Notes: generated from the sequence alone by a model not told the origin. A stretch of DNA of 32,034 bases from Nitrososphaerota archaeon (GCA_016200025.1 JACQFO010000007.1:1-32034), one strand, 5' to 3'. Numbered from the stretch's first letter, positions 9,412 through 32,034 are shown. Made by a program: numbers and translations.

Positions 9412-9415
9412 GGGC

Positions 9416-10573: not shown

Positions 10574-10576
10574 GCC

Positions 10577-12547: not shown

Positions 12548-12577
12548 AATGCGCAGGCGGGCGGGAGTGAAGCGGGC

Positions 12578-13087: not shown

Positions 13088-13548
13088 GCATGCCGATGAA
13101 AGAAAGGATCACGAGCGTCGACCGCCAAAGGACCTGGGAAGGCGAGATACCCTTCCACTACGAATACACTGCCGGGGTTTCAGGGGAGAGGTTCCTCCGG
13201 GGCCTGCAGCGCGGGAAGATCCTGGTGCCGAAGTGCGGGAACTGCGGCAGGTCATACCTGCCCCCCAGGGCCTACTGCACCAACTGTTTCCTCGAGATCA
13301 CGTCCTACGTTGAATTGAAGCCCACGGGCAGGGTGTCCGCGCTCGCGGAGAGCCATGTGGATTTCCAGGGGAGGCGCTCGAAGCCCAGGACCTTCGCCTT
13401 CGTCACCTTTGCCGGGGTCACCGGGGGCCTCGTCCATTTCGCAGAAGGGAAAGGACTGCGGATAGGGTCGAGCGTCAGGGCGAAGTTCAAGCCAGCAGCC
13501 AAGAGGAAGGGGACGCTGCTCGACATCGAGACCTTCGTGAAGACCTAG
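13084..13548 (+). CDS. DUF35 family protein (Zn-ribbon + OB-fold), paralog B
   Basis: I trimmed track ORF 12823..13548 to ATG 13084, giving MSMPMKERI.... The complete ribbon is CGNCGRSYLPPRAYCTNCF, followed by GRVSALAESHVD...GSSVRAKFKP. The ATG overlaps the TGA of paralog A (ATGA). Confidence 0.8.
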   Translation: MSMPMKERITSVDRQRTWEGEIPFHYEYTAGVSGERFLRGLQRGKILVPKCGNCGRSYLPPRAYCTNCFLEITSYVELKPTGRVSALAESHVDFQGRRSKPRTFAFVTFAGVTGGLVHFAEGKGLRIGSSVRAKFKPAAKRKGTLLDIETFVKT

Positions 13549-13549
13549 G

Positions 13550-14467: not shown

Positions 14468-14530
14468 CAGGTGAGATTCGGGCGAATGGACATGGTATTT
14501 AGGGATACCACTTCGCCGCGCATCGAGCCG

Positions 14531-14538
14531 TTTATTAT
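14531..14538. promoter_or_regulatory. Candidate shared/bidirectional TATA box (TTTATTAT) between ilvE and the thiolase gene
   Basis: It is the only A/T-rich element in the divergent spacer. Its centre is about 28 nt upstream of thiolase ATG 14563, which implies a leaderless mRNA. The same element read on the minus strand (ATAATAAA) lies upstream of ilvE. Confidence 0.5.
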
Positions 14539-14562
14539 CGCCAGTTGTCGACGCCCGGGACA

Positions 14563-15741: not shown

Positions 15742-17404
15742 CCTGCTCCTTCAGCTGGCGCCGGAGCACCTTTCCCACCAGGGTCTTGGGGAGGTCCTGG
15801 ACGAAGGCGTAGGTCCTGGGGGCCTTGTAGTTGGCGAGCCTCTCCTTGCAAAACGCCAGCAGCTGCGCCTCGGCTCCCTCCGTAGGGACCCCTTCCTTCA
15901 GTACGACGAAGGCCTTCACCGACTCCCCCCTGTATTCGTCGGGGACCCCGATCACGGCTGCCTCCTTGACCAGCGGACTCTCGAACAGGACTTCTTCCAC
16001 CTCCCGGGGGTAGACCTTGAGGCCTCCGACGTCGACCATGTCCTTTTTCCTGTCGACGATGTACAAGTAACCGTCATCGTCCATCTTCGCGATGTCGCCG
16101 GTGAGCAGCCAGCCGTCGAGCAGGACCAAACCGGTCTCTGCCGGGTTGTTCCAGTAGCCCTTCATCACCTGGGGGCCCTGGATCTCGAGTTCGCCAACCT
16201 CGCCGGTCGCCAGGACTTTCGAGGGGTCGTCGAGATCCACGACGCGGACGTCGGTCGAGGGGAAGGGTATGCCAATGGAGCCTTCCTTGGGCAGCCCCCC
16301 CTGGAAGGGGTTCGTCGACCCGACCGCCGCCGTCTCGGTGAGGCCGTAGCCTTCGACCAGGTTGCCGCCCGTGAGCGCGTTGAACTTCTTCCTTACGGCC
16401 ACGGGCAGGGCCGCCCCGCCGGAGAACGCGACCCTCACGGTCTTCAGGTCGAACTTGGCGACCTCGGGATGGTTGTTGATGGCAACGTACATGGTCGGGA
16501 CTCCGCAGAAGCAGGTGACCCTCTCCTTCTGTATGGTCCGCATTACCTCTTTGAGCTCGAACCTGGGAAGAAGGACGACCCGCCCGCCTGAGAGGAGCGG
16601 CGCGTTGAGGCACGCGGTCATCCCGAAGATGTGGAAGAGCGGCAGGACGGCGAGGGACACGTCGGCACCTGTGAGCGGGAGCGACATGGCCCCGATCGTC
16701 GCAGCTGCCAGCAAGTTGTGGTGGGTCAGCATGGCCCCCTTCGACGTCCCAGTCGTGCCACCGGTGTACTGGAGGACCGCGAGGTCTTCCATTGGGTCGA
16801 TGTGGGCGAACTCCACGAGGGGCCGGGCAGCCTCGACCAGCTCCACGAACCTGTGCGTCTCCCTCCTCCTCAGGTCCTTGACCTTGGCGAGCCCGGCGAG
16901 CCTCCGTTTGATGCCTGGGAGGTAGTCGGTGACGCTCGCGGTAATCACGTGTCTGATGGAGAGCCTCTGGCGACACTTCTCCAGGCTGGAGTAGAGGTCG
17001 TTCCCACGGACGACGTCGTTCGCGGCGACAACGATTGTGCTCCCTGAATCCCTGAGCTGCTGTTCGAGCTCGCGCTCCTTGTAGAGCGGGCTGCAGGGGA
17101 CCGCGACCGCACCAACCTTGAGGATGCCGAAGTACGCGAAAACGAACTGGGGAGTGTTTGGGGAGAAGATGGCCACCCTGTCGCCCTTCTTGACTCCCAG
17201 TCCCACAAGGGATGAAGCGAAGCGAGAGGAGACCTCGTCCACCTGAGAATAGGTCATGGTGCGACCTTGGTACCTAAGGCAGGGCGCCAGGCCGCGCGTC
17301 GACGCGGTCTTCGTCAGGACGGAATGCAACGGCTCCCGGGGGACAGCCGCCTCCTTCGCAAGGTAATCGGGCCAGGACTTGTACCAGAGTCGTTCGGTCT
17401 GCAA
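15728..17404 (-). CDS. AMP-dependent acyl-CoA synthetase (long/medium-chain fatty-acid-CoA ligase, FadD-like)
   Basis: 558 aa. The P-loop is LQYTGGTTGTSKGAMLTHHN. Further motifs are GYGLTET, TGDIAKMDDDGYLYIVDRKKDMV and ...KAPRTYAFVQDLPKTLVGKVLRR. TTG start, with no in-frame ATG nearby. The 3' end overlaps the thiolase gene convergently by 14 nt. Confidence 0.9.
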   Translation of the reverse strand: MQTERLWYKSWPDYLAKEAAVPREPLHSVLTKTASTRGLAPCLRYQGRTMTYSQVDEVSSRFASSLVGLGVKKGDRVAIFSPNTPQFVFAYFGILKVGAVAVPCSPLYKERELEQQLRDSGSTIVVAANDVVRGNDLYSSLEKCRQRLSIRHVITASVTDYLPGIKRRLAGLAKVKDLRRRETHRFVELVEAARPLVEFAHIDPMEDLAVLQYTGGTTGTSKGAMLTHHNLLAAATIGAMSLPLTGADVSLAVLPLFHIFGMTACLNAPLLSGGRVVLLPRFELKEVMRTIQKERVTCFCGVPTMYVAINNHPEVAKFDLKTVRVAFSGGAALPVAVRKKFNALTGGNLVEGYGLTETAAVGSTNPFQGGLPKEGSIGIPFPSTDVRVVDLDDPSKVLATGEVGELEIQGPQVMKGYWNNPAETGLVLLDGWLLTGDIAKMDDDGYLYIVDRKKDMVDVGGLKVYPREVEEVLFESPLVKEAAVIGVPDEYRGESVKAFVVLKEGVPTEGAEAQLLAFCKERLANYKAPRTYAFVQDLPKTLVGKVLRRQLKEQATSR

Positions 17405-17520
17405 GGCTCTGTGCTCTAATCGAAGGGGGTCGTGCCTTAAGGCTTCCCTGAGTCCGACGTTGCTCCGATTGCCTCCTTAGGCTTAAGTATGCAGGGCCTT
17501 CGTTTCAAGCGGAACCCGAT

Positions 17521-18645
17521 TTGGCTGCGGAAACGGAACGATACCTGGTCCTCTGCGTCGACAGGGACGACGACCTCGGCGTCAAGACAAAGCTCGAGAC
17601 GCCCGTGGTAGGAAGGGCCGCGGTCCTCGCTGCCGGCACCAGCCTCGCGCTGGCGGACCCGGAAGAAGCGGACGCCAATGCCATCTTCTCAGCGGTCAAA
17701 AAGTACGACGAGCTGACTCGCGCCGGGACCCTCTGCGAGGTCGCGGTGGTCTGCGGCGAGTCCAACAGGGGCTTCGAGGCCGACCGGAGGGTGGGGAAGG
17801 AGGTCGCCCAGGTGCTTGGTTCATCGCAATATGCGGGCGTCATCCTAGTCTCGGACGGAGGGGAGGACGAACAGGTCATTCCGATAATCCAGAGCATGAG
17901 GCCCATCGTCTCCGTCCAGAGGGTCACTGTAAAGCACAGCCAGACCGTGGAAGAGACGTACCAGGTCCTAGGAAGATACCTGAGGATGCTGGTCTTCGAC
18001 CCGCACTACTCAAAGTGGAGCCTTGGAGTCCCAGGCCTGATCTTCATACTTGCGGGGATCCTGATAGTCTCTCAGCACACCTTCGAAGCTGAGCTTGCTG
18101 CGCTGCTGGTCCTTGGCGGGGCCTTCTTCATCCGAGGGTTCAACATCGACCGCACCGTGGCCGGACTCCTGCAAAGGGGGCCGACGGGCTACATCAGGCT
18201 CTTCACCATGGTCGCCAGCGTGCTGATCGTCCTCGCCGGGGTCATCAGCGGGTACGGCAGCATGGTGAGCCAGGCGCAGGACTACGTCAGAGCGGTCGTC
18301 TCCGAGCCCGGGGCGCTCTTCGTCTATGGGGCTACGCTGGCCGGATATCTGATCAACGGCAGCCTTGCGCTGGTCTGGACCGGAATCGCGATCTATGCAA
18401 TGGGGGCGCTGCTCTCCCACATAGCCAGAGACAGCGTCCTGTGGAAGCGCGACGGGTTCGTGCTGGCCATGCTCGCGATCCTCTACCTCCCAGTAAGGAC
18501 CTTCTCCGAGTTCCTGATCAGGGGGACGACGGAATCGACCTTCCTTCTGATCTCCTACGTCCTGATCGGGCTCGCGGCGATCTTCGCCCTGACCACGACC
18601 ATCTACCCCAGGGTCAGGCCGAAGGCCGGGTCAGAACCGGAGTAG
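17521..18645 (+). CDS. DUF373-like archaeal integral membrane protein
   Basis: 374 aa. The N-terminal soluble domain reads RYLVLCVDRDDDLGVKTKLETPVVGR...LADPEEADANAIFSAVKKYDEL, which I recognise as the DUF373 pattern. About six hydrophobic helices follow. TTG start. The stop lies 3 nt before uppS. Confidence 0.6.
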   Translation: MAAETERYLVLCVDRDDDLGVKTKLETPVVGRAAVLAAGTSLALADPEEADANAIFSAVKKYDELTRAGTLCEVAVVCGESNRGFEADRRVGKEVAQVLGSSQYAGVILVSDGGEDEQVIPIIQSMRPIVSVQRVTVKHSQTVEETYQVLGRYLRMLVFDPHYSKWSLGVPGLIFILAGILIVSQHTFEAELAALLVLGGAFFIRGFNIDRTVAGLLQRGPTGYIRLFTMVASVLIVLAGVISGYGSMVSQAQDYVRAVVSEPGALFVYGATLAGYLINGSLALVWTGIAIYAMGALLSHIARDSVLWKRDGFVLAMLAILYLPVRTFSEFLIRGTTESTFLLISYVLIGLAAIFALTTTIYPRVRPKAGSEPE

Positions 18646-18648
18646 CTC

Positions 18649-19431
18649 ATGCTGGAATCCGCGCTTCGCCTACTCGGCGTATACAGAGTCTACGAAGGGA
18701 GACTGAAGTCCCAGATCGAAGGCGACGAGAGGCCGTCGCACATAGGCATCATACTCGACGGGAACAGGAGATGGGCGGCAAGCCAGGGGATGACCCAGGG
18801 ACTCGGGCACGAGCAGGGAGCGAACAGGGCGGAGGAGCTCCTGGACTGGTGCCACGAGCTGAAGGTCAGGACGGTCACCCTCTACGTCCTGTCCACTGAG
18901 AACCTCGACAGGTCCCCGGAGGAGCTGAAAGTTCTCTTCGAACTCATTGAAGGCAGGCTCGCGAGGCTCCTGACGGATGAGCGGATCACGAGGTACAAGG
19001 TAAGGGTGCGGGCCATCGGGCAGCTCGACCTTCTCCCGCAATCCATCACGGACCTCCTAACCGCCATAGAGAAGAAGACCGCGACCTTCGACGAGCACTA
19101 CCTTAACATCGCAGTCGCCTATGGAGGGCGGGCCGAGATCACGGACATGGTCAGGTCGGTGGCCCAGGACGTCAGGAGCGGCAAGCTCAACCCCGAGGAG
19201 GTCAATGAAGACACCATATCCAAGCGCCTCTACACGTCCTACCTCCCCAACCAGGAACCGGACCTGATAATCAGGACCTCCGGCGAAGAGAGGATGAGCG
19301 GATTCCTGCTTTGGCAGGGGGCCTACTCGGAGCTCGTCTTCATGGACGTCTTCTGGCCCGCCTTCCGGTTCATCGACCTGCTGCGCGCCATCAGGACATA
19401 TCAGAAACGAAGGCGAAGGCACGGAAAGTAG
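18649..19431 (+). CDS. uppS: Undecaprenyl/polyprenyl diphosphate synthase (cis-prenyltransferase)
   Basis: 260 aa. PSHIGIILDGNRRWA, TVTLYVLSTENLDRS, AVAYGGRAEI, DLIIRTSGEERMSGFLLWQGAYSELVF and RRHGK are canonical UPPS motifs. Confidence 0.93.
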   Translation: MLESALRLLGVYRVYEGRLKSQIEGDERPSHIGIILDGNRRWAASQGMTQGLGHEQGANRAEELLDWCHELKVRTVTLYVLSTENLDRSPEELKVLFELIEGRLARLLTDERITRYKVRVRAIGQLDLLPQSITDLLTAIEKKTATFDEHYLNIAVAYGGRAEITDMVRSVAQDVRSGKLNPEEVNEDTISKRLYTSYLPNQEPDLIIRTSGEERMSGFLLWQGAYSELVFMDVFWPAFRFIDLLRAIRTYQKRRRRHGK

Positions 19432-21597: not shown

Positions 21598-22659
21598 TTG
21601 GCGAAGATCAAGGTCGCAATCGCAGGGGTGGGCAACTGCGCATCGGCCCTGCTTCAGGGAGTCACGTACTACTCGGAGAGAGGCCCGGACGAGGGGCTCA
21701 CATACTGGAAGGTGGGGAGCTATACTCCCGAGGACATCGAGTTCGTGGCCGCGTTCGACGTCTCAGCGAAGAAGGTGGGGAAGGACCTCTCGCAGGCCAT
21801 CTTTCAGGGACCCAACAACACCCAGAAGATCGCGGACGTCCCGAAGACCGGCGTCGTGGTCAAGAAGGGCCCGGTGCTCGACGGCATAGGAAAGTACCTC
21901 AAGGAGGTCGTCCCGCTGTCTGCCAAGAGCGAGGAGGACGTCGTGGAGGAGCTCGACAGGTCGGGGGCCGAGATTCTCGTCAACTATCTGCCCGTGGGCA
22001 GCACGGCGGCCTCGCACCGCTATGCGGAATGCGCCATCGAATCGGGGGCGGCTTTCGTGAACGCCATACCCGTCTTTATTGCCTCGGACGCCAGCTGGGC
22101 GTCTCGCTTCGCAAAGGCGAAACTGCCGGTCGCGGGCGACGACGTGATGAGCCAGGTGGGCGCGACCGTCCTCCACAAGACGCTGGTCAAGATGGCCATC
22201 GACAGGGGGGTCAAGGTCGACGAGACCTACCAGTTGAACATCGTGGGAGACACCGACTTCCTCAACATGCTGGAGGAGAGCAGGCTAAAGGACAAGCGCG
22301 AGAGCAAGACCAGCGCAGTCAGGGCGATGTCGCCCTACGAGGTGCCCACCAGGATAGGGCCCAGCGACTACGTCCCGTTCCTGGCCAACGACAAGGTCTG
22401 CTACATATGGCTGAAGGGGAGATACTTCGGGGGGACGACGGTGAAGATGGACGTGAAGCTGCACGTAGTCGACGCCTACGACAGCGGAGGTGTGATGGTC
22501 GACGCGATAAGAGGCACGAAGATAGCCCTGGACAGGGGGGTGTCGGGGCAGCTGACGAGCCTTTCCGCTTTCTGTTTCAAGCATCCGCCCGTCCAGATGC
22601 CCTATCCTGCGGCAAAGGCAGCCTTCGAAGACTTCACTTCTGGGCAGCTTGAACGCTGA
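21598..22659 (+). CDS. ino1: Inositol-3-phosphate synthase (myo-inositol-1-phosphate synthase, Ino1 type)
   Basis: 353 aa. KVAIAGVGNCASALLQGVTYY is the Rossmann motif characteristic of the short Ino1 type, and LPVAGDDVMSQVGATV... is also present. TTG 21598 is the only start-type codon after the in-frame TAA at 21589-21591 that retains this motif. Confidence 0.9.
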   Translation: MAKIKVAIAGVGNCASALLQGVTYYSERGPDEGLTYWKVGSYTPEDIEFVAAFDVSAKKVGKDLSQAIFQGPNNTQKIADVPKTGVVVKKGPVLDGIGKYLKEVVPLSAKSEEDVVEELDRSGAEILVNYLPVGSTAASHRYAECAIESGAAFVNAIPVFIASDASWASRFAKAKLPVAGDDVMSQVGATVLHKTLVKMAIDRGVKVDETYQLNIVGDTDFLNMLEESRLKDKRESKTSAVRAMSPYEVPTRIGPSDYVPFLANDKVCYIWLKGRYFGGTTVKMDVKLHVVDAYDSGGVMVDAIRGTKIALDRGVSGQLTSLSAFCFKHPPVQMPYPAAKAAFEDFTSGQLER

Positions 22660-23797
22660 CGCTCGCGGCCCTTCTGACGTAGAAGGCCGTGGCCAGGAGG
22701 ACCACCAGCACAATCCCAGTGGGGATGATATAGCGGGTGGTGACGTCCTCGCCTATCGCGATGCCCTTTGAAGGGACCTTTCCGTTGACGGTGGCTCCCT
22801 GGTAGACGAAGGTCAGCTTCGCCTTCTCGAAGGGCACTGCTATGCCCGAACTCGCGCCCGCGGTCGAGGTCGCCGTTGCGGCGCTTCCGGCGGCGATGGA
22901 ACCAAAGCTGACGGTGAGGACCCCTGAGTTCAGAGAGGCGTTTTCCAGCTCAGTGAGGCTTAGGCCGGCGGGCAAGGGCAGTGTGAAGAGCACAGACGAG
23001 ACGTTAGCCGCGGAAGGGTTGCTTATCCTCACGGAGATCGTGAAAGGCTTCCCCTCGGTGGGGCTCGCGGGCACAGTGGTTATCGACGCCGACAGTGGCT
23101 GGTAGACCGTCACGTTGGGGCCGGGGCCCCGAACTGAGAAGGATGTCGAGCTGAAGTAGAAGTTGGAGAAGACCTCCGAGCTGGGCAGCGTGCCGAAGGT
23201 CGTCGAGGAGGCGAGGACCCCATAGTGGAACGAAAGGCCCGCACCTGGAGCGACAAGCCGCGAGGTGTTGGAGGCCGCGGACCCTGTGAGTGTGTCGAAG
23301 CTATCCACGATGGCGGACACGGTCGCATTGTGTATCCCAAAGGGGCCCGAATTGGTCGCCATGACGGTGACCGTGGAGGTCATTCCGGCGAAGAGTTCGG
23401 AGGGCTGGTACTGCTTGGAGAAGAGGAATCCTGTGGGCATGCCGACGGGGTTGGACCATCCCGAGATGTTGTTGCCTGCCGAAGTCTCCTGATACGAGAA
23501 CGGCGGGATTACGTAATTCCTGGGGGTCGTGACATTGACTTTCATGTAGGCGTACTTCGTGGTGGAGGCGGCGATCGACGTGTGGTTTATCGAGACGACG
23601 CCTGCGGCGCAGGTGATTCCAGTCCCGTTGGTGATGCCGCAACCGAGGCCCGCTGGCAGTGTGCCCCGGGAGAGGAACGAAGTGACCTCGGCGAGCCCGA
23701 TGTTAGTGACCTTGAACGTAAAGTCAACGCCGGTGCCGCCTGAAGCAATGGGAGTCATGACAAGAGACGAGACGAGCGTTGCGTACCCGACCCTCAT
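22634..23797 (-). CDS. Surface glycoprotein, C-terminal portion with membrane anchor (probably the continuation of ORF 23918..25354)
   Basis: 387-aa S/T/N/G-rich ORF with repeated Ig-like/CARDB-like strands (TFKVTNIG, TVTVMATNSGPFGIHNATV, PFTISVRISNPSAANVSSVLF). The C-terminal TM helix plus basic tail is IIPTGIVLVVLLATAFYVRRAAS. It is in the same frame as the upstream ORF. The coding-like sequence continues upstream to 23917 with no further stop. Confidence 0.75.
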   Translation of the reverse strand: MRVGYATLVSSLVMTPIASGGTGVDFTFKVTNIGLAEVTSFLSRGTLPAGLGCGITNGTGITCAAGVVSINHTSIAASTTKYAYMKVNVTTPRNYVIPPFSYQETSAGNNISGWSNPVGMPTGFLFSKQYQPSELFAGMTSTVTVMATNSGPFGIHNATVSAIVDSFDTLTGSAASNTSRLVAPGAGLSFHYGVLASSTTFGTLPSSEVFSNFYFSSTSFSVRGPGPNVTVYQPLSASITTVPASPTEGKPFTISVRISNPSAANVSSVLFTLPLPAGLSLTELENASLNSGVLTVSFGSIAAGSAATATSTAGASSGIAVPFEKAKLTFVYQGATVNGKVPSKGIAIGEDVTTRYIIPTGIVLVVLLATAFYVRRAASVSVQAAQK

Positions 23798-23917
23798 CGA
23801 GACGTGAGAGAAGACCTCGGCGAAGGTGTTCGTCGAAGCGTTGTACTGGACCCCGTTGGGGTTCTTGTAGCTGACGTCGTAGGTCTTCGACAGGTTGATT
23901 CCGAGGAGCCCCTGGGC

Positions 23918-23920
23918 CTA
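23918..23920 (-). other. Single in-frame TAG separating the two halves of the surface-protein reading frame
   Basis: The plus strand reads cta at 23918-23920. 25354 minus 23797 is 1557, which is 3 x 519, so the two ORFs share a frame. The 40 intervening codons translate as AQGLLGINLSKTYDVSYKNPNGVQYNASTNTFAEVFSHVS with no other stop. Confidence 0.9.
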
Positions 23921-25354
23921 CTCCGTGACCTCGACCGTGGCTGAGCCTCCGTTCGCCGCCAGCCCGCTGACGTCCTGTCCTGCAACTACGACCGAGGACG
24001 CCGCGAAGGTTCCCACGTTGGTCGCGATCACCTTGACCTTCTGCTCGGCCCCGACGACCTTGCCGTATCCTCCGAGGGGTACTACCCGCGCGTAGACGAC
24101 GGCGTCATCTGCGCCGAGCGAAAGGGGAATGGCGTTGAGGGAAGAGTGTCCCTGGCTCGTGAGCTGCCCGACCTTGAAGGAGTAGCCCACCGCGATGGCT
24201 GGAATCGTGATCCTTTGCGAGGCACTCCCATTGAAATGGAGGGTGTAGACTGGGGTGAGCCGGACTCCGGCCGCCATGCTTGGATTTGAGAAGGTCGAAT
24301 TGCCGCTCACCAGGGTGAATTGGTTCGAGCTCTTCCACCAGTCGTCGGCGAAGGACACGCTCTGCAGGGCGGTGTCGTTGGACAGGTTCGAAAGCGAAAT
24401 CGTCACGGAAAGGTTGTCCCCTGCGTGGAGGACGCCCGTGTTCACGGTCCTGTAGGCGAGGAGAAGGGCGGGCTGTTGCATTGCCGTAACGTTGAGCCTG
24501 TAGATGTGCTCTCTGGGCGCCACGGTCAGAGTGTAGGAGCCCATGAAGGCGGCCCGGTCGTTGTTCACAGTCGCGGGGTCTGACGAGTTGATCAGGCCGT
24601 CAAGGAACTTTATTGCAATGCTGGAAGACGTGCTGCGGTTCGAAGCCTGGAGCGAAGTTATCGTGGAACCGAAGTAGTTGAGGATGCTCGGCCTCTTCGT
24701 AGTCGCGTCAATGGCTGTCGCCGTTATCGAGCCGACAACAAGCGAGTGGTTGAACCCAGACCCGGCCCTCACGCCTCCAAGGACGATGACCGGAGAAGCA
24801 GTGCCGATCCACCCCGACGAGGTGATCGCATTGGCAAACCCCCCTGCCCCTGTGGGCAAGAACGTAAGGAGGGTCCTGGGCACGATCGTGTCGAAGGACA
24901 CCGGGCTGTAGAAGGTGTAGGAGCCTGTATCGTTCGAGAACGAGACGAAGGCCGAGAGCAGATACGAATCAAGGCCCCGGGCCGCAGCGGCTGCAGATGA
25001 GAACGAGTCTGCCCCGACAGTGAGGAAGAGACCTTGGGAGGGGATGAAGGGCGTAGGGAGCAGGTCGTACCCCGACGGCCCGAAGAGCTGGAAGTCGGAC
25101 TTCCACGCCGTCGTCTTGATCGCTGTGACGTTGTACCAGCTGAGGCCCGGGACGGATTCGAGGGTAGAGAGCCTGGACGACCCGTTGACGTTCCCCATGG
25201 TGAGGTACCAAAGGGCGTCGGAGCCTGCTATGGAGATCGACAGCTTCTCTGAGTATGTCGTCGAAGCGACCGACACTTGAAGAGGGACCGCGGCCAAGAC
25301 CATCAGGGCCAGAACGAAGAGGCCAAGGAACTGAGAACGCTGCAATCGATTCAC
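23918..25354 (-). CDS. Surface glycoprotein, N-terminal portion with signal peptide
   Basis: 478 aa. GTG start. The signal-peptide-like N-terminus is MNRLQRSQFLGLFVLALMVLAAVPLQVSVAS. The body is S/T/N-rich with 12 N-x-S/T sequons and ends ...SATVEVTE-TAG. Confidence 0.8.
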   Translation of the reverse strand: MNRLQRSQFLGLFVLALMVLAAVPLQVSVASTTYSEKLSISIAGSDALWYLTMGNVNGSSRLSTLESVPGLSWYNVTAIKTTAWKSDFQLFGPSGYDLLPTPFIPSQGLFLTVGADSFSSAAAAARGLDSYLLSAFVSFSNDTGSYTFYSPVSFDTIVPRTLLTFLPTGAGGFANAITSSGWIGTASPVIVLGGVRAGSGFNHSLVVGSITATAIDATTKRPSILNYFGSTITSLQASNRSTSSSIAIKFLDGLINSSDPATVNNDRAAFMGSYTLTVAPREHIYRLNVTAMQQPALLLAYRTVNTGVLHAGDNLSVTISLSNLSNDTALQSVSFADDWWKSSNQFTLVSGNSTFSNPSMAAGVRLTPVYTLHFNGSASQRITIPAIAVGYSFKVGQLTSQGHSSLNAIPLSLGADDAVVYARVVPLGGYGKVVGAEQKVKVIATNVGTFAASSVVVAGQDVSGLAANGGSATVEVTE

Positions 25355-25373
25355 CGCAGGCCGACCGTTTTGC

Positions 25374-25381
25374 CTATAAAA
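25374..25381 (-). promoter_or_regulatory. Candidate TATA box (TTTTATAG on the minus strand) for the surface-protein gene
   Basis: It is a close match to the archaeal TATA consensus, centred about 24 nt upstream of GTG 25354. It lies in the 42-nt spacer after the radA stop. Confidence 0.55.
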
Positions 25382-25396
25382 CCCTTGATTAGATTC

Positions 25397-26389
25397 CTAC
25401 TTCTTTCTCGGCGAGTCCTCGGATGGGTCGTCGACCCCCTTCTCGTTCAGCATGAAGACCGCGTCTCTTTCCGGATGGTAGGGGCTGTCGACCATCCTTG
25501 CGATGCGGTTCTTGGCTGCCTTCCTGAGGTAGAGCCTGTAGGTGCTGGTGTGCGCCACTACATGGCCGCCCGTCGGCCTCGTGGGGTCGCCGAAGAAGGA
25601 GTCAGGAGCCGCCTGCACCTGGTTCGTCACCACCACGGCCACGTTGTAGATCTCCGCAGTCCTGAGGAGCTGATGCATGAACCTGTTGAGCCTCTGCTGC
25701 CTCTCTGAGAGGGTCCCACGGCCAACGAACTCGGCCCTGTAGTGGGCGACGGCGCTGTCCAGTATGACAAGCTTGACCTTGTTGGGCTCGATGACCCTGC
25801 CGAGGTCTTTCACAATGAGCTCCTGGTGGGCGCTGTTGTAGGCCCGTGCGACCGTGATCCTCGAAAGGACCTTATCCGAGTCGAAGTCCCTGGCCTCGGC
25901 AATCTCTGCGATGCGCTCCGGCCGGAAAGTCCCCTCGGTATCGATGTATACCGCGCCTCCGTCGAGCCCGCCTTGGCTCCTTTCTGCCTGGACCATCACG
26001 CAGAGGGTGTGGCAGATCTGGCTCTTCCCGCTGCCGAATTCGCCGTAGAACTCGGTCATCGCCCAGGTCTCGATGCCCCCGCCGAGGAGGTCGTCCAGGT
26101 TCTTCGACCCGGTCGATATCCTGTCGATGGCCTTCCTCTTGACGAGGAGGTCTGCCGCGTTTATGAAATCAGGCTCCAGGCGCTTCAGCTCCACGAGCTT
26201 CTTCCTCGCCTTGTTGTTCAGCTCCACCGCCTTCGACACGTCGATGTCCACCGCGTCGGCGATGTCCATGGGCCCGGCTGTGGCCAGGTCTAGTATCGTC
26301 TCTATTCCTGCATCGTTCAACTTCTGCTTTGTTGCTGGGCCTACGCCGGGGAGGGAGTCGAGCTCAAGGTCCTCTTGCGTCTCCGTCAA
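25397..26389 (-). CDS. radA: DNA repair and recombination protein RadA
   Basis: I trimmed track ORF 25397..26836 to TTG 26389 (MTETQEDLELDSLPGVGPATKQKLNDAGIETILDLA...). This N-terminus is the HhH domain. Walker A is GEFGSGKSQICHTL. Further motifs are VYIDTEGTFRPERI and LVILDS. About 330 aa. The upstream part of the track ORF overlaps asnS out of frame. Confidence 0.93.
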   Translation of the reverse strand: MTETQEDLELDSLPGVGPATKQKLNDAGIETILDLATAGPMDIADAVDIDVSKAVELNNKARKKLVELKRLEPDFINAADLLVKRKAIDRISTGSKNLDDLLGGGIETWAMTEFYGEFGSGKSQICHTLCVMVQAERSQGGLDGGAVYIDTEGTFRPERIAEIAEARDFDSDKVLSRITVARAYNSAHQELIVKDLGRVIEPNKVKLVILDSAVAHYRAEFVGRGTLSERQQRLNRFMHQLLRTAEIYNVAVVVTNQVQAAPDSFFGDPTRPTGGHVVAHTSTYRLYLRKAAKNRIARMVDSPYHPERDAVFMLNEKGVDDPSEDSPRKK

Positions 26390-26400
26390 CGTTTCACGCG

Positions 26401-26406
26401 ACCTCC
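26401..26406 (-). promoter_or_regulatory. Shine-Dalgarno-like GGAGGT upstream of radA
   Basis: The minus strand reads AAAGGAGGTCGCGTGAAACG-TTG. The SD ends 11 nt before the TTG start, inside the 38-nt asnS-radA spacer. This suggests co-transcription with asnS. Confidence 0.5.
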
Positions 26407-26427
26407 TTTGGCCTAGATAAGCATGAC

Positions 26428-27732
26428 CTAGGGAGAGATCCGTGAAACTGTCCTGGGGAACAGACTCGCCGACCTGATGTGTTTCAGGCCTGCTATCCAC
26501 CTCGTGGACCTCTCGACGCCTATCCCGAATCCCGAATGGGGAGGCATGCCGAACTTCCTGAGCTCCAGGTACCACTCGAAGGACTCGGCGGGAAGGTCCT
26601 GCTTCGAGATCCTGTCGATGAGCTGACGGTGGTCGTGGATCCTCTGGCCCCCGGTCGCCAGCTCGCCGAACCCCTCGGGGGCGATGAGGTCGGCGGACTT
26701 CGTGACCTTGGGTCTGTCCGCGTAGGTCATGTGGTAGAAGCTCCTGGCCGCGAGAGGGTAGTCTGTGACGAAGAACGGCGACTCCTGCGACTTGCTTATG
26801 GCTCGCTCGGCTTCCGTGGGGATGTCGTCCCCCCATTCGAAGCCAAGGCCCTTCTTGTCCGCGAAGTCCCTCGCCTCGTCGTAGGACATCCTCGGGAACG
26901 GGAGGGCCGGCTGCCGGAGGGTCCTTCCTAGGACCTCCAGCTCTGCCTTCCTTCTCTCAAGGACTCTCTCGACCATCATTGTGACCAGGCCCTCCTGGAC
27001 CTTCAGGTTGTCCGTCTGTTCGGCGAAGGCCTGCTCGGCCTCGATCATCCAGAATTCGGTCAGGTGCTTCGAGGTCTTTGACTTCTCGGCCCGGAACGCG
27101 GGCTGGAAGATCCAGACCTTCTGCAGCGCCGGGAGCGCCGCCTCTTCGTAGAACTGCGCGCTCTGGCTCAGGTTGACCTTCTTGCCAAAGTAGTCCACTG
27201 AGAAGAGCGTCGACCCACCCTCGACTGCAGCCTGCACGAAGGTGGGCGCGCTGATCAGATGGAACCCGTTCTCTCTGAAGTAGTCGAAGGCGGCGCCGAT
27301 CACTTCTGCCCTTATTCGCATGGACGCGATCGCCTTGGGGCCCCTGATGCTGAGGTGTCGTTTGTCGAAGAGGTAGGAAGCCGACTTCACCGCGGTCTTG
27401 GTTATCGGCCAGCTTTCAGCCAGGGAGACTATCTCGAACTCGGCTGCGGAAATCTCCTTCCCTCCCGGGGCCCTGCGGTCTTCCTTCACCGTCCCCCTTA
27501 CTACGACCGCTGATTCTCTGGTGGCCTTCCTGATCGCTTCGAAAGCAGACTCCTCGGCCACGCCCTTCTTCGCCGAGACTTGGACGTACCCGGAGCCGTC
27601 CCTGATGACCGCGAAGACCAGCCCGCCCACCGCGTGTTTCCGGGCGACCCAGCCCCTGACCTCCACCTCGGGCCCCGAACTCCCCATGAGTACCTCGGCG
27701 GCGCCCGAGACCTTGAACCCAGCCCCTTTCAT
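26428..27732 (-). CDS. asnS: Asparagine--tRNA ligase (class IIb; AspRS not fully excluded)
   Basis: 434 aa. The N-terminal OB domain is VEVRGWVARKHAVGGLVFAVIRDGSGYVQV. Motif 2 is FRAEKSKTSKHLTEFWMIEAEQAF, where E-x-E rather than D-x-E favours AsnRS. Motif 3 is MPPHSGFGIGVERSTRWIAGLKHIRSASLFPR. Confidence 0.8.
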   Translation of the reverse strand: MKGAGFKVSGAAEVLMGSSGPEVEVRGWVARKHAVGGLVFAVIRDGSGYVQVSAKKGVAEESAFEAIRKATRESAVVVRGTVKEDRRAPGGKEISAAEFEIVSLAESWPITKTAVKSASYLFDKRHLSIRGPKAIASMRIRAEVIGAAFDYFRENGFHLISAPTFVQAAVEGGSTLFSVDYFGKKVNLSQSAQFYEEAALPALQKVWIFQPAFRAEKSKTSKHLTEFWMIEAEQAFAEQTDNLKVQEGLVTMMVERVLERRKAELEVLGRTLRQPALPFPRMSYDEARDFADKKGLGFEWGDDIPTEAERAISKSQESPFFVTDYPLAARSFYHMTYADRPKVTKSADLIAPEGFGELATGGQRIHDHRQLIDRISKQDLPAESFEWYLELRKFGMPPHSGFGIGVERSTRWIAGLKHIRSASLFPRTVSRISP

Positions 27733-29930: not shown

Positions 29931-30533
29931 TCAGGACTCCCTCGTATCTGCCCTGACGCTCCCGCCCGGGGTTTCCTCGCCAAAGATTTCGGCCTGGTAG
30001 ACCTGCACCTCCGTGCCCTCGGCCAGCCAAGCTTCCGGGGGCAGGCCGGCCTTGATGCAGGCCTGGGAAAGGAATTCCTGTGGGCCCATCCCGAAATCGG
30101 TCGCCACCTGGGGTAGGAGGAGGCCGCTCGCTCCGCGACTACTAATGATAAGCCCGTCGATGCCGATCCTCACCAGGGAAGGAAGGTCCGTCCTCATCTC
30201 CGGTTCCAATTCCTGTGGAGGGGTCAGTATGCTGACTTCTACTACGACGGAGTCCAGCTCGGCAGCGGTGATAGGGGGGAAACGCGGATCCTCCGAGGCC
30301 GCGGCGAGAGCAGCTTCTACTATCGCGTCTCCCAGCTTCTTGACTGGATAGGGGAAGCCTATGCAGCCCCTGAGGCCATCTGGAGCGCGGGAGCCAGTGT
30401 AGAAAGTGACGAAGGCCCCGCGGAGCTCGGAGAACGGCCCCTGTTCCCACGACCTAGGTGCTGGAGAAGTCCCACGGACTCTGTGCACGAGGGAGGCCCT
30501 TGCGAGGTCGACAGCGGCCCTGCCTTCGTCCAT
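29931..30533 (-). CDS. AMMECR1 domain protein
   Basis: The LRGCIGFPYPVKKLGDAIVEAALAAASEDPRFPP signature is present, together with GIDGLIISSRGASGLLLPQVA. I prefer ATG 30533 (MDEGRAAVDLARASL...). The track ORF starts at 30572. Confidence 0.88.
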   Translation of the reverse strand: MDEGRAAVDLARASLVHRVRGTSPAPRSWEQGPFSELRGAFVTFYTGSRAPDGLRGCIGFPYPVKKLGDAIVEAALAAASEDPRFPPITAAELDSVVVEVSILTPPQELEPEMRTDLPSLVRIGIDGLIISSRGASGLLLPQVATDFGMGPQEFLSQACIKAGLPPEAWLAEGTEVQVYQAEIFGEETPGGSVRADTRES

Positions 30534-31038
30534 CGACAACCGTCTCTGCATTCTGCCTGAGGCGCCTTTCAAGCGACCTTAACTTTTTCCAGTGGCTTCC
30601 CTTCCAGTAGACGCGCCCGCAGTCTACACAGCGGTGGAACAGACGATGCCTTCGTTTGACTTCGGGGGGGACATGTGCGGACGCCTCGGACCTTTTCAGC
30701 ACGACCAGGGGTCCGTTGCAAACGGAACAGCGGGAGACCCCGCGGACGAGACGTATGGACGAGGCGAGCGCCCCGCCGACCACCGAGGTGAGCCTGGCGG
30801 CGTCGTTGTCGCCCACTACGAGCACGGACAGCATGCCGTCAGCTCTGGCCTTCAAGTAGAGCGATCGGTCGGCCGTGAGTGCCAGCCTGCGCTCCCTCCT
30901 CGCCAGTCTCAGAAAGTCAGGGTCGGAGCCCGAACGATAGTACTCGGTGTCGAAGCCGAGGGCGCGCAGCTTGCGGGCGAGAGAACCCAGCATCGCGTCG
31001 GCCAGGAGCTTCCGTGCGACTCCAGCCTTGTGAGCCAT
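30454..31038 (-). CDS. Mut7-C (DUF82) PIN-like RNase domain protein with C-terminal Zn ribbon
   Basis: 194 aa. LLADAMLGSLARKLRALGFDTEY...LALTADRSL...RCSVCNGPL...FHRCVDCGRVYWKGSHW is the Mut7-C pattern. The 3' tail overlaps the AMMECR1 start by about 80 nt. Confidence 0.85.
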   Translation of the reverse strand: MAHKAGVARKLLADAMLGSLARKLRALGFDTEYYRSGSDPDFLRLARRERRLALTADRSLYLKARADGMLSVLVVGDNDAARLTSVVGGALASSIRLVRGVSRCSVCNGPLVVLKRSEASAHVPPEVKRRHRLFHRCVDCGRVYWKGSHWKKLRSLERRLRQNAETVVDGRRQGRCRPRKGLPRAQSPWDFSST

Positions 31039-31056
31039 CTCAACTTTGTCGGCGAG

Positions 31057-32034
31057 CTACCGCGTGGTTTCCGCAGTCTTCACTGCCATGTAGAGCTTCT
31101 TCGCCGAGGAAGTCTTCTCGAAGTGCACCCGTATGGGGGAGATGATGGAGTCGAGGGCGTCTGCGACTCCCCTCTTGAGGTCGGCGGGATGAAGGGTTCC
31201 ACCCCGGAAGGCCAGTTCCATCTCGTCGTAGCTCGTGAATTCGACCTTGCCGCCGAACTTCTCCGGTCGCTCCACGGAGAGCGACTTCTGTTTCCTGAAG
31301 ATGATGTACTTGGAGTACTCCATGGGGGCGTTGCCCTCAACGACCTTGGCTGGACAATAGGCGGAGTTCACCTTCTTCGCTATCTCCTCCCTGCTGTCGT
31401 GGACGAAGATCGCGGTCTCCGGCCTGCTCTTGCTCATCTTGCTCGCTATTTGGGAATCCAGGGTCCTGTTCTCATCGTACCCCTCCGCCTCCTTCTTCCC
31501 TCCAAGGCCGATGAGCATGTGGTGGTGCACTGCGACGGGCTTCTTCCACTTCATTTTGTCCGCAATCTCCCTGGCCAGGATGTTGGCACGCCTCTGGTCG
31601 AGGCCCAGTTGGCAGATGTCGACGTCGAGCCAGAAGATGTCGGCGACCTGCATCATTGGATAGAAGAGCTGGGCAGTCTGGATCAGGTCCTTGGTGGTGC
31701 GGCCCATGATCGTGAGTGCACGCTGGGTCCTGGCCAACGTGGCGTTCTGCGCGACTGTCACGACCCTCTTCCAGTACTCCTCGTCCTTGGCAGCGTCGCT
31801 CGTCCAGAGCACTTCCACCTTGCTCATGTCAACGCCCGCCGCGCGCCAGACCTCGATGAAGTACTTCCCCACCTCCTGGATGGTCGCGAGGTCCCCGCCC
31901 ATCTTGTTGTTGACCCAGCCGAACCAGTCGGCTATCCAGAGCTTCATCTTCACGCCCGCCTTCAGCATGTCCTCCACCAGGATGGGGCGCAGGACCCCGA
32001 ATGGAAGGTGCGCAAGGCCGCTGGGTTCGAAGCC
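31057..32034 (-). CDS. tyrS: Tyrosine--tRNA ligase, archaeal type (5' end beyond the window)
   Basis: The frame stays open to the window edge. Minus-strand translation from 32034 gives GFEPSGLAHLPFGVLRPILVEDMLKAG.... Further on are YPMMQVADI, the KMSKS motif, AYCPAKVVEGN and ERPEKFGGKVEFTSYDEMELAFRGGTLHPADLKRGVADALDSIISPIR. These closely parallel M. jannaschii TyrRS. Confidence 0.9.
   Translation of the reverse strand, partial: GFEPSGLAHLPFGVLRPILVEDMLKAGVKMKLWIADWFGWVNNKMGGDLATIQEVGKYFIEVWRAAGVDMSKVEVLWTSDAAKDEEYWKRVVTVAQNATLARTQRALTIMGRTTKDLIQTAQLFYPMMQVADIFWLDVDICQLGLDQRRANILAREIADKMKWKKPVAVHHHMLIGLGGKKEAEGYDENRTLDSQIASKMSKSRPETAIFVHDSREEIAKKVNSAYCPAKVVEGNAPMEYSKYIIFRKQKSLSVERPEKFGGKVEFTSYDEMELAFRGGTLHPADLKRGVADALDSIISPIRVHFEKTSSAKKLYMAVKTAETTR

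What the first reader, a model, noticed from the sequence alone, without database searches (positions are those of the whole stretch)
22634..25354. A ~906-codon surface-glycoprotein reading frame interrupted by one in-frame TAG
ORF 23918..25354 has a signal peptide and no membrane anchor. ORF 22634..23797 has no convincing signal peptide or promoter, but does have a C-terminal TM helix and basic tail. The two ORFs are in the same frame. The 40 codons between them are open and have the same S/T/N-rich composition. So the only interruption is the TAG at 23918-23920 (...VEVTE-TAG-AQGLLGINLSK...). The merged product has the standard archaeal S-layer/surface-protein layout. That layout is a signal peptide, repeated Ig-like/CARDB-like strands, 23 N-x-S/T sequons by my count and a C-terminal anchor. 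Possible explanations are a recent nonsense mutation (pseudogene or truncated secreted form), a sequencing or population variant, or regulated stop-codon readthrough. Readthrough would yield both a soluble 478-aa form and an anchored full-length form.
Basis: seen in the sequence. Interest (0 to 1): 0.68.

Follow-up and report, generated by a model that had tools for sequence, protein, structure and literature searches.

The report
Surface-protein gene cut by one nonsense codon
A conserved ~906-residue membrane-anchored surface glycoprotein gene of a soil-type Nitrososphaerota archaeon carries one premature TAG, where relatives have a serine codon; this is an ordinary, recent nonsense change (or an assembly error), not a recoding signal.

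Summary
On the minus strand, 25354->22634 is one 906-codon frame broken only by TAG at 23918-23920. It has a signal peptide, 23 N-x-S/T sequons (10.2 +/- 2.8 expected) and a C-terminal TM helix.

It is one ancestral gene:
- More than 120 orthologs are single ~900-aa proteins covering 97-100% of the merged frame.
- Ten loci share the order AsxRS-RadA-[gene]-Ino1P synthase and a conserved TATA promoter.
- None of the loci that reach the site has a stop there. The column is Ser 26, Thr 11, Ala 3, Met 1, with TCN codons, so TCG->TAG by one C->A change is the simplest origin.

Programmed readthrough or pyrrolysine is not supported:
- TAG ends 12 of 30 other genes in the window, at full-length Pfam ends.
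- Two of those terminators share the TAG-GCC context.
- Four in-frame TAG-only gene junctions would give fusion proteins if TAG were read through.
- The 3' RNA is unstructured.
- The TAG lies inside a beta-sandwich, not at a domain boundary.

The downstream half keeps 38/38 invariant residues, so the event is recent or an artefact. No reads or close strains were available to separate the two.

The S-layer label is unproven. The N-terminal domain resembles eukaryotic PIG-T in fold only.

The parts
25373..25383 (-). BRE/TATA-type promoter element GGTTTTATAGG, about 26 nt upstream of the GTG start and directly after the RadA stop
   Evidence: One of only two A/T-only hexamer sites on this strand in 22634-25500; the other is AATAAA inside the coding region at 24614. 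The motif ACGGTTTTATAGG is conserved at the same place in 7 orthologous loci.
25352..25354 (-). GTG start codon of the ancestral full-length gene
   Evidence: First start after the upstream stop. The N-terminus aligns with ortholog N-termini at 97-100% coverage.
25265..25354 (-). Signal peptide (residues 1-30)
   Evidence: Strongest hydrophobic segment, residues 7-30. AF2 helix 3-21, followed by a low-confidence linker.
24500..25261 (-). N-terminal alpha/beta domain (residues 32-285) with a PIG-T-like fold
   Evidence: AF2 pLDDT 88.6, pTM 0.86. Foldseek top hits are 7w72_T and 8imx_T (PIG-T), E 5e-9, TMq 0.57, with the next hits at TM 0.23. No sequence-level match.
24239..24490 (-). TRAP_beta-like beta-sandwich (residues 289-372)
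   Evidence: Pfam PF05753, 26.1 bits against a cutoff of 22.4. 34 of 42 family members match, best E 7e-14.
23819..24055 (-). DUF11-type beta-sandwich (residues ~434-512) that contains the premature stop
   Evidence: DUF11 matches in orthologs P0017 and P0013 map to window residues 434-512 and 437-509. AF2 strands 439-477 precede the stop and strands 488-513 follow it.
23918..23920 (-). Premature in-frame TAG (codon 479), which replaces an ancestral Ser codon, most likely TCG
   Evidence: The ortholog column is S26/T11/A3/M1 with no gap. Ortholog codons are TCA, TCG, TCT x3 and ATG; TCG is the commonest Ser codon in this gene at 45/121.
23795..23797 (-). ATG of the annotated downstream 387-aa ORF. 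It is an internal, nearly invariant Met (M520) of the family, not a start site.
   Evidence: M520 is nearly invariant in alignment A1. No A/T-rich promoter-like element lies between the TAG and this ATG. The public annotation nevertheless calls this ORF as a protein (P0143).
23171..23416 (-). CARDB-like beta-sandwich (residues ~647-728)
   Evidence: Weak CARDB hit in the window protein. Significant hits in orthologs map to window residues 648-728.
22850..23083 (-). DUF11 beta-sandwich (residues 758-835)
   Evidence: Pfam PF01345, 41 bits against a cutoff of 24.6.
22664..22744 (-). C-terminal transmembrane helix (residues 871-897) followed by a short basic tail
   Evidence: Hydrophobic segment 875-894. 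AF2 helix 871-897. Y892 and R894 are invariant.
22634..22636 (-). Natural TGA stop of the full-length gene
   Evidence: Ortholog C-termini align to the last residue, and K906 is nearly invariant.

Best explanation
One ancestral gene for a ~906-aa type-I membrane glycoprotein has suffered a single-base nonsense substitution at codon 479. The protein consists of a signal peptide, a PIG-T-like N-domain, about five Ig-like beta-sandwiches, a C-terminal TM anchor and a short basic tail. The substitution is most simply Ser TCG -> TAG, which is C->A on the coding strand and G->T on the + strand.

TAG is a normal, efficient terminator in this organism. Translation from the single conserved promoter and GTG start therefore ends at residue 478. 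The product is secreted and unanchored, and it stops in the middle of a beta-sandwich, so it is probably unstable or non-functional. The downstream 427 codons are not independently expressed in any useful way: they have no promoter, the first start codon is 40 codons downstream at a conserved internal Met, and there is no signal peptide.

The downstream half shows no detectable decay, so the mutation is very recent. It is either fixed in, or a majority allele of, the population behind this metagenome-assembled contig.

Shown: single-gene ancestry, a sense codon in relatives, TAG used as a terminator, the position inside a domain, and the absence of decay. Inferred: that the change is a real mutation rather than a consensus error, and the fate of the truncated product.
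For: Single-gene ancestry:
- More than 120 orthologs of 882-948 aa cover 97-100% of the merged frame; none of those listed is split.
- The exhaustive profile search finds mostly ~880-920-aa proteins.
- The order AsxRS-RadA-[gene]-Ino1P-NUDIX is kept in the related loci. In every locus that holds both halves, they abut with exactly one sense codon between them.
- The TAG column is ungapped: S26/T11/A3/M1. Ortholog codons are TCA, TCG, TCT and ATG. TCG is the gene's commonest Ser codon.
- There is one conserved promoter, ACGGTTTTATAGG, upstream of the first ORF only.

TAG as a terminator:
- 12 of 30 other genes end in TAG, at the ends of their Pfam profiles.
- The identical TAG-GCC context occurs at two genuine terminators.

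Recency and sequence quality:
- The downstream half keeps 38/38 invariant and 92/105 >=90%-conserved columns, against 134/144 upstream (Fisher p = 0.18).
- Its C/N identity ratio is 0.896, against 0.887 among orthologs.
- All ~29 other genes on the contig look intact, which argues against a generally error-ridden sequence.
Against: - No reads, and no strain at >=90% identity, could be found. A consensus or sequencing error, or a minority allele captured by the assembler, cannot be excluded. C>A/G>T is also a known oxidative-damage artefact class in sequencing libraries (my own knowledge).
- The gene is conserved as a single-copy syntenic gene across the clade, so its loss might be expected to be costly. 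That slightly favours an artefact or a transient allele.
- The window sequence has the lowest C-half-minus-N-half conservation of the 42 sequences (-0.054, next lowest -0.048). This is a faint, non-significant hint that the mutation might not be brand new.
Confidence: 0.62

Rival explanations
1. Assembly, sequencing or consensus artefact. The organism's gene is intact (TCG Ser at codon 479), and the TAG is a miscalled base or a minority variant that the metagenome assembler placed in the consensus.
For: - The window is an entire 32,034-bp MAG contig from NCBI.
- It is a single-base change with the downstream half fully preserved: 38/38 invariant residues and no indels.
- The gene is otherwise universally intact in relatives.
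- A second split copy, in a short automatic assembly (L011), is a +/-1 slip in a G6 run. That looks like an error and shows such artefacts do occur in this family's records.
Against: - About 29 other genes on the contig show no frameshift or premature stop, so the per-base error rate is low.
- Substitution errors in short-read consensus are rare, and only about 2.7% of possible substitutions in this region create a stop.
- Genuine nonsense alleles are common in natural populations (my own knowledge).
Confidence: 0.25
2. Recoding. The UAG is decoded some of the time, by regulated near-cognate readthrough, a suppressor tRNA or pyrrolysine. This would yield both a 478-aa secreted form and a 906-aa anchored form.
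For: - The frame stays perfectly open and conserved after the TAG.
- PylRS has been reported in one Nitrososphaeria MAG (PMC9630628), so taxonomy alone does not exclude Pyl.
- Reviews note that some interrupted archaeal genes are nevertheless expressed (PMC8211752).
Against: - No ortholog has a stop at this column. The residue there is variable (S/T/A/M, and K in L011), not a conserved special position.
- TAG terminates 40% of genes in the window, against 1.6-11.3% in Pyl-decoding archaea (PMC4153887).
- General UAG suppression would fuse RadA to this protein, thiolase to acyl-CoA synthetase, DUF373 to UppS and the aaRS to Mut7-C, because only a TAG separates each pair in frame.
- The internal TAG has the same TAG-GCC context as genuine terminators.
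- The 131 nt downstream fold no better than shuffles, z = +0.68.
- The window contains no tRNA and no Rfam element.
- The stop lies inside a beta-sandwich, so the short form would be a broken domain.
- Demonstrated archaeal recoding is limited to Sec, Pyl and one -1 frameshift (PMC8037382 abstract).
Confidence: 0.04
3. Two genuine genes. A secreted N-terminal protein and a separately initiated membrane-anchored C-terminal protein (from ATG 23797 or by reinitiation) together replace the single-chain protein.
For: - The public annotation calls the 387-aa ORF as a protein (P0143).
- Another contig (L011) also carries the gene as two overlapping ORFs.
Against: - ATG 23797 encodes a nearly invariant internal Met.
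- There is no promoter-like element or alternative start in the 40 codons after the TAG.
- The downstream product would lack a signal peptide, so its Ig domains and 11 sequons could not reach the outside.
- The break is mid-domain.
- The L011 split is a homopolymer frameshift at a different position, and its 'start' is merely the first TTG after the shift.
- The great majority of homologs are single genes.
Confidence: 0.03

Closest known systems
Unitary pseudogene or truncation allele created by a point nonsense mutation in a prokaryotic surface protein gene
   Same: A single-base change from a sense codon that relatives retain. It is an otherwise intact ORF with an intact promoter. The downstream part has no start signals of its own and has not decayed. 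The gene encodes an exposed envelope protein that evolves fast: 50-61% identity where the neighbouring RadA is 90-93%.
   Different: Nothing structural. What is unknown is whether the allele is fixed, polymorphic or an artefact, and whether it was selected (for example escape from a virus or predator that uses the protein as a receptor, which is speculation).
Archaeal S-layer and cell-surface glycoproteins (for example Haloferax csg, Sulfolobus SlaA/SlaB, Nitrosopumilus NmSLP)
   Same: A signal peptide, many N-glycosylation sequons (23, about 2.3 times expectation), strings of Ig-like beta-sandwich domains, and a C-terminal TM anchor with a short basic tail.
   Different: - No sequence match to any PDB chain, even at E <= 1-10.
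- No S-layer protein among the top 50 fold matches.
- The family is unusually well conserved for a lattice protein (mean column identity 61%, 94 invariant columns) and has a distinctive conserved N-terminal domain.
- Lattice formation was not tested.
Pyrrolysine-encoding UAG in methylamine methyltransferase genes (Methanosarcinales, Methanomassiliicoccales)
   Same: An in-frame UAG within a conserved ORF in an archaeon.
   Different: - In those genes the UAG is conserved across orthologs, and their genomes avoid TAG as a stop (1.6-11.3%; PMC4153887).
- Here the UAG is unique to one contig, the column is Ser/Thr/Ala, TAG is 40% of stops, and no Pyl machinery or 3' structure is seen.
PIG-T / Gpi16, the scaffold subunit of the eukaryotic GPI transamidase (PDB 7w72_T, 8imx_T)
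   Same: A type-I membrane topology: signal peptide, large lumenal or extracellular beta-rich ectodomain, a single C-terminal TM helix and a short tail. The N-terminal 254-aa domain superposes on PIG-T with Foldseek E 5e-9, probability 1.00 and TMq 0.57, well separated from all other hits. The full-length model also picks up 7w72_T.
   Different: - 12-13% identity, no Pfam Gpi16 hit, and no profile-to-sequence hit even at E <= 10.
- The archaeal protein carries about four additional Ig-like domains.
- No partner subunits (PIG-K, GPAA1, PIG-S, PIG-U) were looked for.
- This is a fold resemblance, not demonstrated homology or shared function.
TRAP-beta (SSR2), DUF11 and CARDB beta-sandwich domain families
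   Same: Pfam matches above the gathering score in the window protein: TRAP_beta 26.1 bits against 22.4, and DUF11 41 bits against 24.6. Most family members match as well.
   Different: These are generic Ig-like modules. The matches describe domain type and say nothing about function as a translocon component.

Membership tests
Single gene disrupted by a nonsense mutation (unitary pseudogene or truncation allele) | Both fragments are collinear with one uninterrupted gene in relatives, in conserved synteny | tested here: met
   more than 120 full-length orthologs, and related loci with the same neighbours. In every locus that holds both halves, they abut with one sense codon between them.
Single gene disrupted by a nonsense mutation (unitary pseudogene or truncation allele) | The premature stop is one mutational step from the sense codon found in relatives | tested here: met
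   Ser in 26/41 orthologs, TCN codons in five of six loci (the sixth has ATG), and TCG is the commonest Ser codon in the gene.
Single gene disrupted by a nonsense mutation (unitary pseudogene or truncation allele) | The stop codon is a functional terminator in this organism | tested here: met
   12 of 30 genes end in TAG at complete Pfam profile ends, and two genuine terminators have the same TAG-GCC context.
Single gene disrupted by a nonsense mutation (unitary pseudogene or truncation allele) | Relaxed constraint (extra substitutions, indels, further stops) downstream of the lesion | tested here: not met
   38/38 invariant columns kept, no further stop or frameshift, and an N-versus-C difference that is not significant (p = 0.18). 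This means the lesion is very recent or not real. It does not contradict the lesion itself.
Single gene disrupted by a nonsense mutation (unitary pseudogene or truncation allele) | The variant is real in the reads or the population | not testable with these tools
   No reads are available. No relative at >=90% identity exists in any collection.
Pyrrolysine (UAG) recoding | pylT and pylS-pylBCD present in the genome | not testable with these tools
   Only a 32-kb contig is available. It holds no tRNA, no Rfam match and no Pyl gene among its ~30 genes.
Pyrrolysine (UAG) recoding | TAG avoided as a terminator | tested here: not met
   12/30 = 40% TAG stops, against 1.6-11.3% in Pyl-decoding archaea (PMC4153887).
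Pyrrolysine (UAG) recoding | The in-frame UAG is conserved in orthologs | tested here: not met
   No stop at this column in 41 aligned orthologs or in any of the fetched loci that reach it.
Programmed stop-codon readthrough | A leaky stop context and/or a stimulatory 3' RNA structure | tested here: not met
   The context is identical to genuine terminators. The downstream 131 nt give z = +0.68 against shuffles.
Programmed stop-codon readthrough | The stop lies where both the short and the long product are complete folded units | tested here: not met
   The TAG lies inside the DUF11-type sandwich spanning residues ~434-512, with strands on both sides.
Archaeal S-layer protein | Secretion signal, dense N-glycosylation sequons and a C-terminal membrane anchor | tested here: met
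Archaeal S-layer protein | Homology to a characterised S-layer protein family | tested here: not met
   No PDB sequence hit. No S-layer entry in the top 50 fold matches. No S-layer Pfam or NCBIfam family.
Archaeal S-layer protein | Forms the 2-D lattice and is the dominant envelope protein | not testable with these tools
   Needs microscopy or proteomics.
PIG-T / Gpi16 | The fold of the lumenal domain | tested here: met
   N-domain model against 7w72_T and 8imx_T: E 5e-9 and 1e-8, TMq 0.57 and 0.56. The next hit is at E 1.7e-4 with TM 0.23.
PIG-T / Gpi16 | Sequence or profile similarity (Pfam Gpi16, PDB chains) | tested here: not met
   no hit, even at E <= 10.
PIG-T / Gpi16 | Co-occurrence with the catalytic partner PIG-K/Gpi8 and the other GPI-transamidase subunits | not tested

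The most novel reading that the evidence does not exclude
The UAG at codon 479 is decoded at a biologically meaningful rate in this Nitrososphaerota lineage, for example by a regulated Pyl or suppressor system like the PylRS reported in one Nitrososphaeria MAG. One gene would then yield a shed 478-aa form and a membrane-anchored 906-aa form. This would be the first non-methyltransferase, non-Sec readthrough isoform switch in an archaeal envelope protein.
Probability: 0.03. Interest if true: 0.75.

Novelty: already known. Interest (0 to 1): 0.15.

Why it matters
As a recoding candidate it does not hold up. Its practical value is for annotation. The two deposited ORFs (one is in NCBI as a 387-aa protein) should be merged and flagged as one disrupted gene, and the TAG should not be taken as evidence of an altered code in this clade.

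If the mutation is real, it is a snapshot of very recent loss, or loss of anchoring, of a clade-wide conserved envelope glycoprotein in a natural population. That is the kind of change expected under virus or predator pressure on surface receptors, but this remains conjecture.

The more interesting by-product is the family itself. It is a conserved, syntenic, ~900-aa type-I membrane glycoprotein of non-marine Nitrososphaerota, and its N-terminal domain has a PIG-T-like fold. That may deserve a study of its own.

Tried and rejected
- **Global TAG reassignment.** This was prompted by five same-frame TAG-only ORF junctions. It was rejected because each junction separates complete, unrelated genes that end at full Pfam profile ends.
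- **Source contig, other assemblies or strain variants.** I tried exact-product look-ups of both ORFs and both neighbours, a genome-collection scan (best 54% identity), a metagenome scan (best 57%) and a cluster look-up (singleton). Nothing at >=90% identity exists, so the variant question stays open.
- **Recurrent break point.** Fragments P0140, P0145 and P0168 end or start within about 16 residues of the TAG column. On inspection, L011 is a +/-1 frameshift in a G6 run, and P0145's apparent start at the TAG column is just the first TTG after the shift. L012 is a distant 1.9-kb contig with an unresolvable tail. This gives no evidence for a conserved split or a hotspot mechanism.
- **PYLIS-like or readthrough-stimulating RNA.** None was found. 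Rfam found nothing in the window.
- **Sequence-level homology of the family to any solved structure, including PIG-T and S-layer proteins.** None was found. NCBIfam adds only a sub-threshold DUF11 repeat.
- **dN/dS across the lesion.** Not attempted, because the nearest relative is only 58% identical and synonymous sites would be saturated. Retention of conserved columns was used instead.
- **Bacterial sigma-70 promoter scan.** Not used, because it does not apply to archaea. A/T-rich hexamer mapping and cross-locus conservation were used instead.

Full report
**1. Observation**

On the minus strand, the frame from GTG 25354 to TGA 22634-22636 is 907 codons long. It has one internal stop, TAG at 23918-23920 (codon 479), in the context ...ATVEVTE*AQGLLGINLSK....

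- The upstream ORF (478 aa) begins with the strongest hydrophobic segment in the protein, residues 7-30.
- The only other hydrophobic segment is residues 875-894 at the C-terminus, followed by YVRRAASVSVQAAQK.
- There are 23 N-x-S/T sequons, 12 before and 11 after the stop. Composition-matched shuffles give 10.2 +/- 2.8.
- The 40 codons between the TAG and the ATG of the annotated downstream ORF (23797) are open.

**2. Is TAG a stop in this organism?**

The frame map showed four more pairs of high-GC3 ORFs joined in frame by nothing but a TAG:
- 9392-10573 | 10574-12547
- 17452-18645 | 18646-19431
- 31057-32034 | 30454-31056
- RadA 25397-26956 | this gene

That raised the possibility of a reassigned TAG. 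Pfam shows the opposite. Each pair consists of two complete, unrelated genes: SCP-x-type thiolase | acyl-CoA synthetase, DUF373 | undecaprenyl-diphosphate synthase, class-I W/Y tRNA synthetase | Mut7-C RNase, and RadA | surface protein. The TAG-terminated genes run to the last positions of their profiles (Thiolase_C 123/123, Prenyltransf 219/219, Rad51 244/244, tRNA-synt_2 307/308, DUF373 334/335).

Among the 30 other genes in the window, stop usage is TGA 15, TAG 12 and TAA 3. That is 40% TAG. The published figures for Pyl-decoding archaea are 1.6% (Ca. M. alvus), about 4-5% (Methanosarcina) and 11.3% (M. luminyensis) (PMC4153887).

Any general suppression of UAG would fuse RadA to the signal peptide of this protein and create three other chimeras. 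The internal TAG is followed by GCC, exactly as at two genuine terminators (thiolase-like 2 and the ORF ending at 19910).

**3. One gene or two?**

A search with the merged frame returned more than 120 proteins of 882-948 aa, 49-58% identical, covering 97-100% of the query. One further hit is 853 aa at 94% coverage. All named hits come from Nitrososphaerota/'Thaumarchaeota' MAGs. An exhaustive profile search of 1.84 billion representatives found 211 homologs, 88 of them at E <= 1e-30 and most 880-920 aa long.

The closest relative is in the complete 1.5-Mb genome CP066694 (P0001, locus L009). Its neighbourhood is collinear with the window: W/Y-RS, Mut7-C, AMMECR1, glycosyltransferase, hypothetical, Asn/Asp-RS, RadA, the 907-aa gene, a convergent myo-inositol-1-phosphate synthase, NUDIX, UppS. 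The other nine fetched loci show the same core order as far as each contig extends. Wherever both halves are present, they abut with exactly one codon between them.

The element ACGGTTTTATAGG lies directly after the RadA stop, about 26-36 nt before the start codon, in the window (25373-25383) and in seven orthologous loci. Apart from an AATAAA inside the coding region at 24614, it is the only A/T-only hexamer site on this strand across the gene. Nothing comparable precedes the downstream ORF. That ORF's ATG encodes M520, a nearly invariant internal residue of the family. The two ORFs are therefore one ancestral gene with one promoter.

**4. What was at codon 479?**

In the 42-sequence alignment the TAG column is ungapped. 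It reads Ser in 26, Thr in 11, Ala in 3 and Met in 1 ortholog. The nearest relative reads VDVVE-S-AQGLTG against the window's VEVTE-*-AQGLLG.

At the DNA level the orthologs use TCA, TCG, TCT (three times) and ATG. TCG is the commonest Ser codon in the window gene, at 45 of 121. A single C->A transversion, TCG->TAG, is the most parsimonious origin.

**5. Age of the lesion**

The downstream half is not decaying.
- Its identity to orthologs relative to the upstream half is 0.896, the same as among the orthologs themselves (0.887).
- It keeps 38 of 38 columns that are invariant in the orthologs, and 92 of 105 that are >=90% conserved. The upstream half keeps 56 of 56 and 134 of 144. The difference is not significant (Fisher p = 0.18), although the window sequence is the most extreme of the 42.
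- There is no further stop or frameshift in the 427 downstream codons. About 2.7% of possible substitutions there would create a stop, so an open frame is only informative beyond roughly 5-10% neutral divergence.

The lesion is therefore very recent, or it is not real.

**6. Tests for programmed readthrough**

- No relative carries a stop at the site.
- The 131 nt from just upstream of the TAG into the downstream region fold no better than dinucleotide shuffles (z = +0.68).
- The contig holds no tRNA and no Rfam family.
- The AlphaFold model (mean pLDDT 84) places strands 439-477 before the stop and strands 488-513 after it.
- DUF11 matches in orthologs P0017 and P0013 map to window residues 434-512.

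The stop therefore cuts a beta-sandwich in half. The 478-aa product would not be a tidy soluble isoform.

From the literature: archaeal recoding has been demonstrated only for Sec, Pyl and the -1 frameshift of fucA1 (PMC8037382 abstract; see also the review PMC8211752). A PylRS has been reported in one Nitrososphaeria MAG (PMC9630628). I therefore do not exclude Pyl on taxonomy alone. The codon-usage and conservation evidence makes it very unlikely here.

**7. Real mutation or artefact?**

The cluster look-up shows that the window's 387-aa ORF is deposited in NCBI as a protein. It is a singleton at 90% identity and sits on a contig of 32,034 bp, so the window is a whole MAG contig.

No independent assembly or close strain could be found by any route. 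About 29 other genes on the contig are intact, so the sequence is not generally error-ridden.

On priors (my own judgement), genuine nonsense alleles outnumber consensus substitution errors that happen to create stops. I give about 0.6 to a real recent mutation or polymorphism and about 0.25 to an artefact. Only the reads can decide.

**8. Other disrupted copies**

The profile search turned up fragments that at first suggested a recurrent break point. P0140 (473 aa) and P0145 (429 aa) are adjacent on a 3.2-kb Logan contig, L011.

Three-frame translation shows a +/-1 shift inside a G6 run (CAGAAGGGGGGCTTCC), 16 codons upstream of the TAG column. P0145's 'start' next to that column is simply the first TTG after the shift.

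L012 is a distant member (31% identity) on a 1.9-kb contig. Its N-terminal half is followed by an unrelated 40-aa tail, and the junction cannot be resolved.

These are independent lesions or artefacts of a different kind. They are not evidence for a conserved two-gene arrangement.

**9. What the protein is**

Pfam finds TRAP_beta (289-372), DUF11 (758-835) and weak CARDB in the window protein, and the same families across most members.

The full model consists of:
- a signal peptide;
- an alpha/beta N-domain (~34-280);
- about five beta-sandwiches;
- a TM helix (871-897).

Whole-chain Foldseek hits are generic multi-Ig proteins with TM-scores of 0.1-0.2.

Modelled alone, the N-domain reaches pLDDT 88.6 and pTM 0.86. 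It matches PIG-T of the human GPI transamidase (7w72_T and 8imx_T; E 5e-9 and 1e-8; TMq 0.57 and 0.56). The next hits are at E 1.7e-4 and TM 0.23. No sequence-level signal supports this, and the searched literature does not link PIG-T to archaea. I therefore report it as a fold resemblance only.

No solved S-layer protein matches by sequence or appears among the top fold hits. 'S-layer protein' remains a guess. 'Conserved type-I membrane-anchored surface glycoprotein' is what the data show.

The protein evolves much faster than its neighbours: 50-61% identity against RadA's 90-93%. That fits surface exposure.

**10. Verdict**

The exciting option, regulated readthrough, is not supported.

This is an ordinary one-base nonsense disruption, or a miscall, of a conserved envelope-protein gene. 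The deposited two-ORF annotation should be merged and flagged as one disrupted gene.

Interest is low (0.15). The kind of feature is already known.

Noticed in passing
window 24500-25261 (-), residues 32-285 of the merged protein: The conserved N-terminal domain of this Nitrososphaerota family has a fold whose only strong PDB matches are PIG-T, the scaffold subunit of the eukaryotic GPI transamidase (7w72_T and 8imx_T; E ~5e-9, TMq 0.57; next hit TM 0.23). The overall type-I topology also matches PIG-T. There is no sequence-level support, and no paper in the searched library links PIG-T to archaea.
   Followed up: partly
window 10571-10573, 18643-18645, 25397-25399, 31057-31059: Four pairs of complete, unrelated genes are joined in the same frame by a single TAG with no other stop between them: thiolase|acyl-CoA synthetase, DUF373|UppS, RadA|surface protein, W/Y-tRNA synthetase|Mut7-C. 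This shows very tight packing. It also means any UAG suppression would create fusion proteins.
   Followed up: yes
L011:1640-1730 (Logan ERR10755942 contig, 3179 bp): A second organism's copy of the same gene is split into overlapping 473-aa and 429-aa ORFs by a +/-1 frameshift in a G6 homopolymer, 16 codons upstream of the column where the window has its TAG. This could be an assembly error or an independent disruption.
   Followed up: partly
L012:151-1710 (GCA_052916065.1, contig JBLFKV010131783.1): A distant family member (31% identity) matches only the N-terminal half (profile positions 5-462). It then continues with an unrelated 40-aa tail and a stop, and no family sequence follows in any frame. 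This could be a truncated paralogue, a chimeric contig or a frameshift.
   Followed up: partly
window 21598-22659 (+) and all fetched loci that extend past the gene's 3' end: The surface-protein gene is always convergent with, and overlaps by about 25 nt, a myo-inositol-1-phosphate synthase gene. RadA is always immediately upstream. This synteny is conserved across relatives that are only 50-60% identical in the surface protein. It is not known whether the inositol link means anything, given the PIG-T-like fold.
   Followed up: no
window 1333-17476: A dense block of fatty-acid or acyl-CoA metabolism genes: ETF alpha and beta, acyl-CoA dehydrogenase, three thiolase-family genes, two AMP-forming acyl-CoA synthetases, two ChsH2/DUF35-type OB-fold zinc-ribbon proteins, MmgE/PrpD, and a luciferase-like monooxygenase. 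This suggests a heterotrophic, non-ammonia-oxidising Nitrososphaerota lineage.
   Followed up: no
window 22634-23797 (-): The downstream fragment is deposited in NCBI as a stand-alone 387-aa protein (P0143, a singleton cluster). It starts at a conserved internal Met. This is an annotation artefact of the premature stop.
   Followed up: yes
window 23725-23733 (-), residues 542-544: The window sequence has lost an N-x-T sequon that is otherwise conserved. The consensus is N-L-T, with N in 39/41 and T in 39/41 orthologs; the window reads G-V-D. This is one of nine lineage-specific changes at >=90%-conserved C-half positions that are not shared with the closest relative.
   Followed up: no
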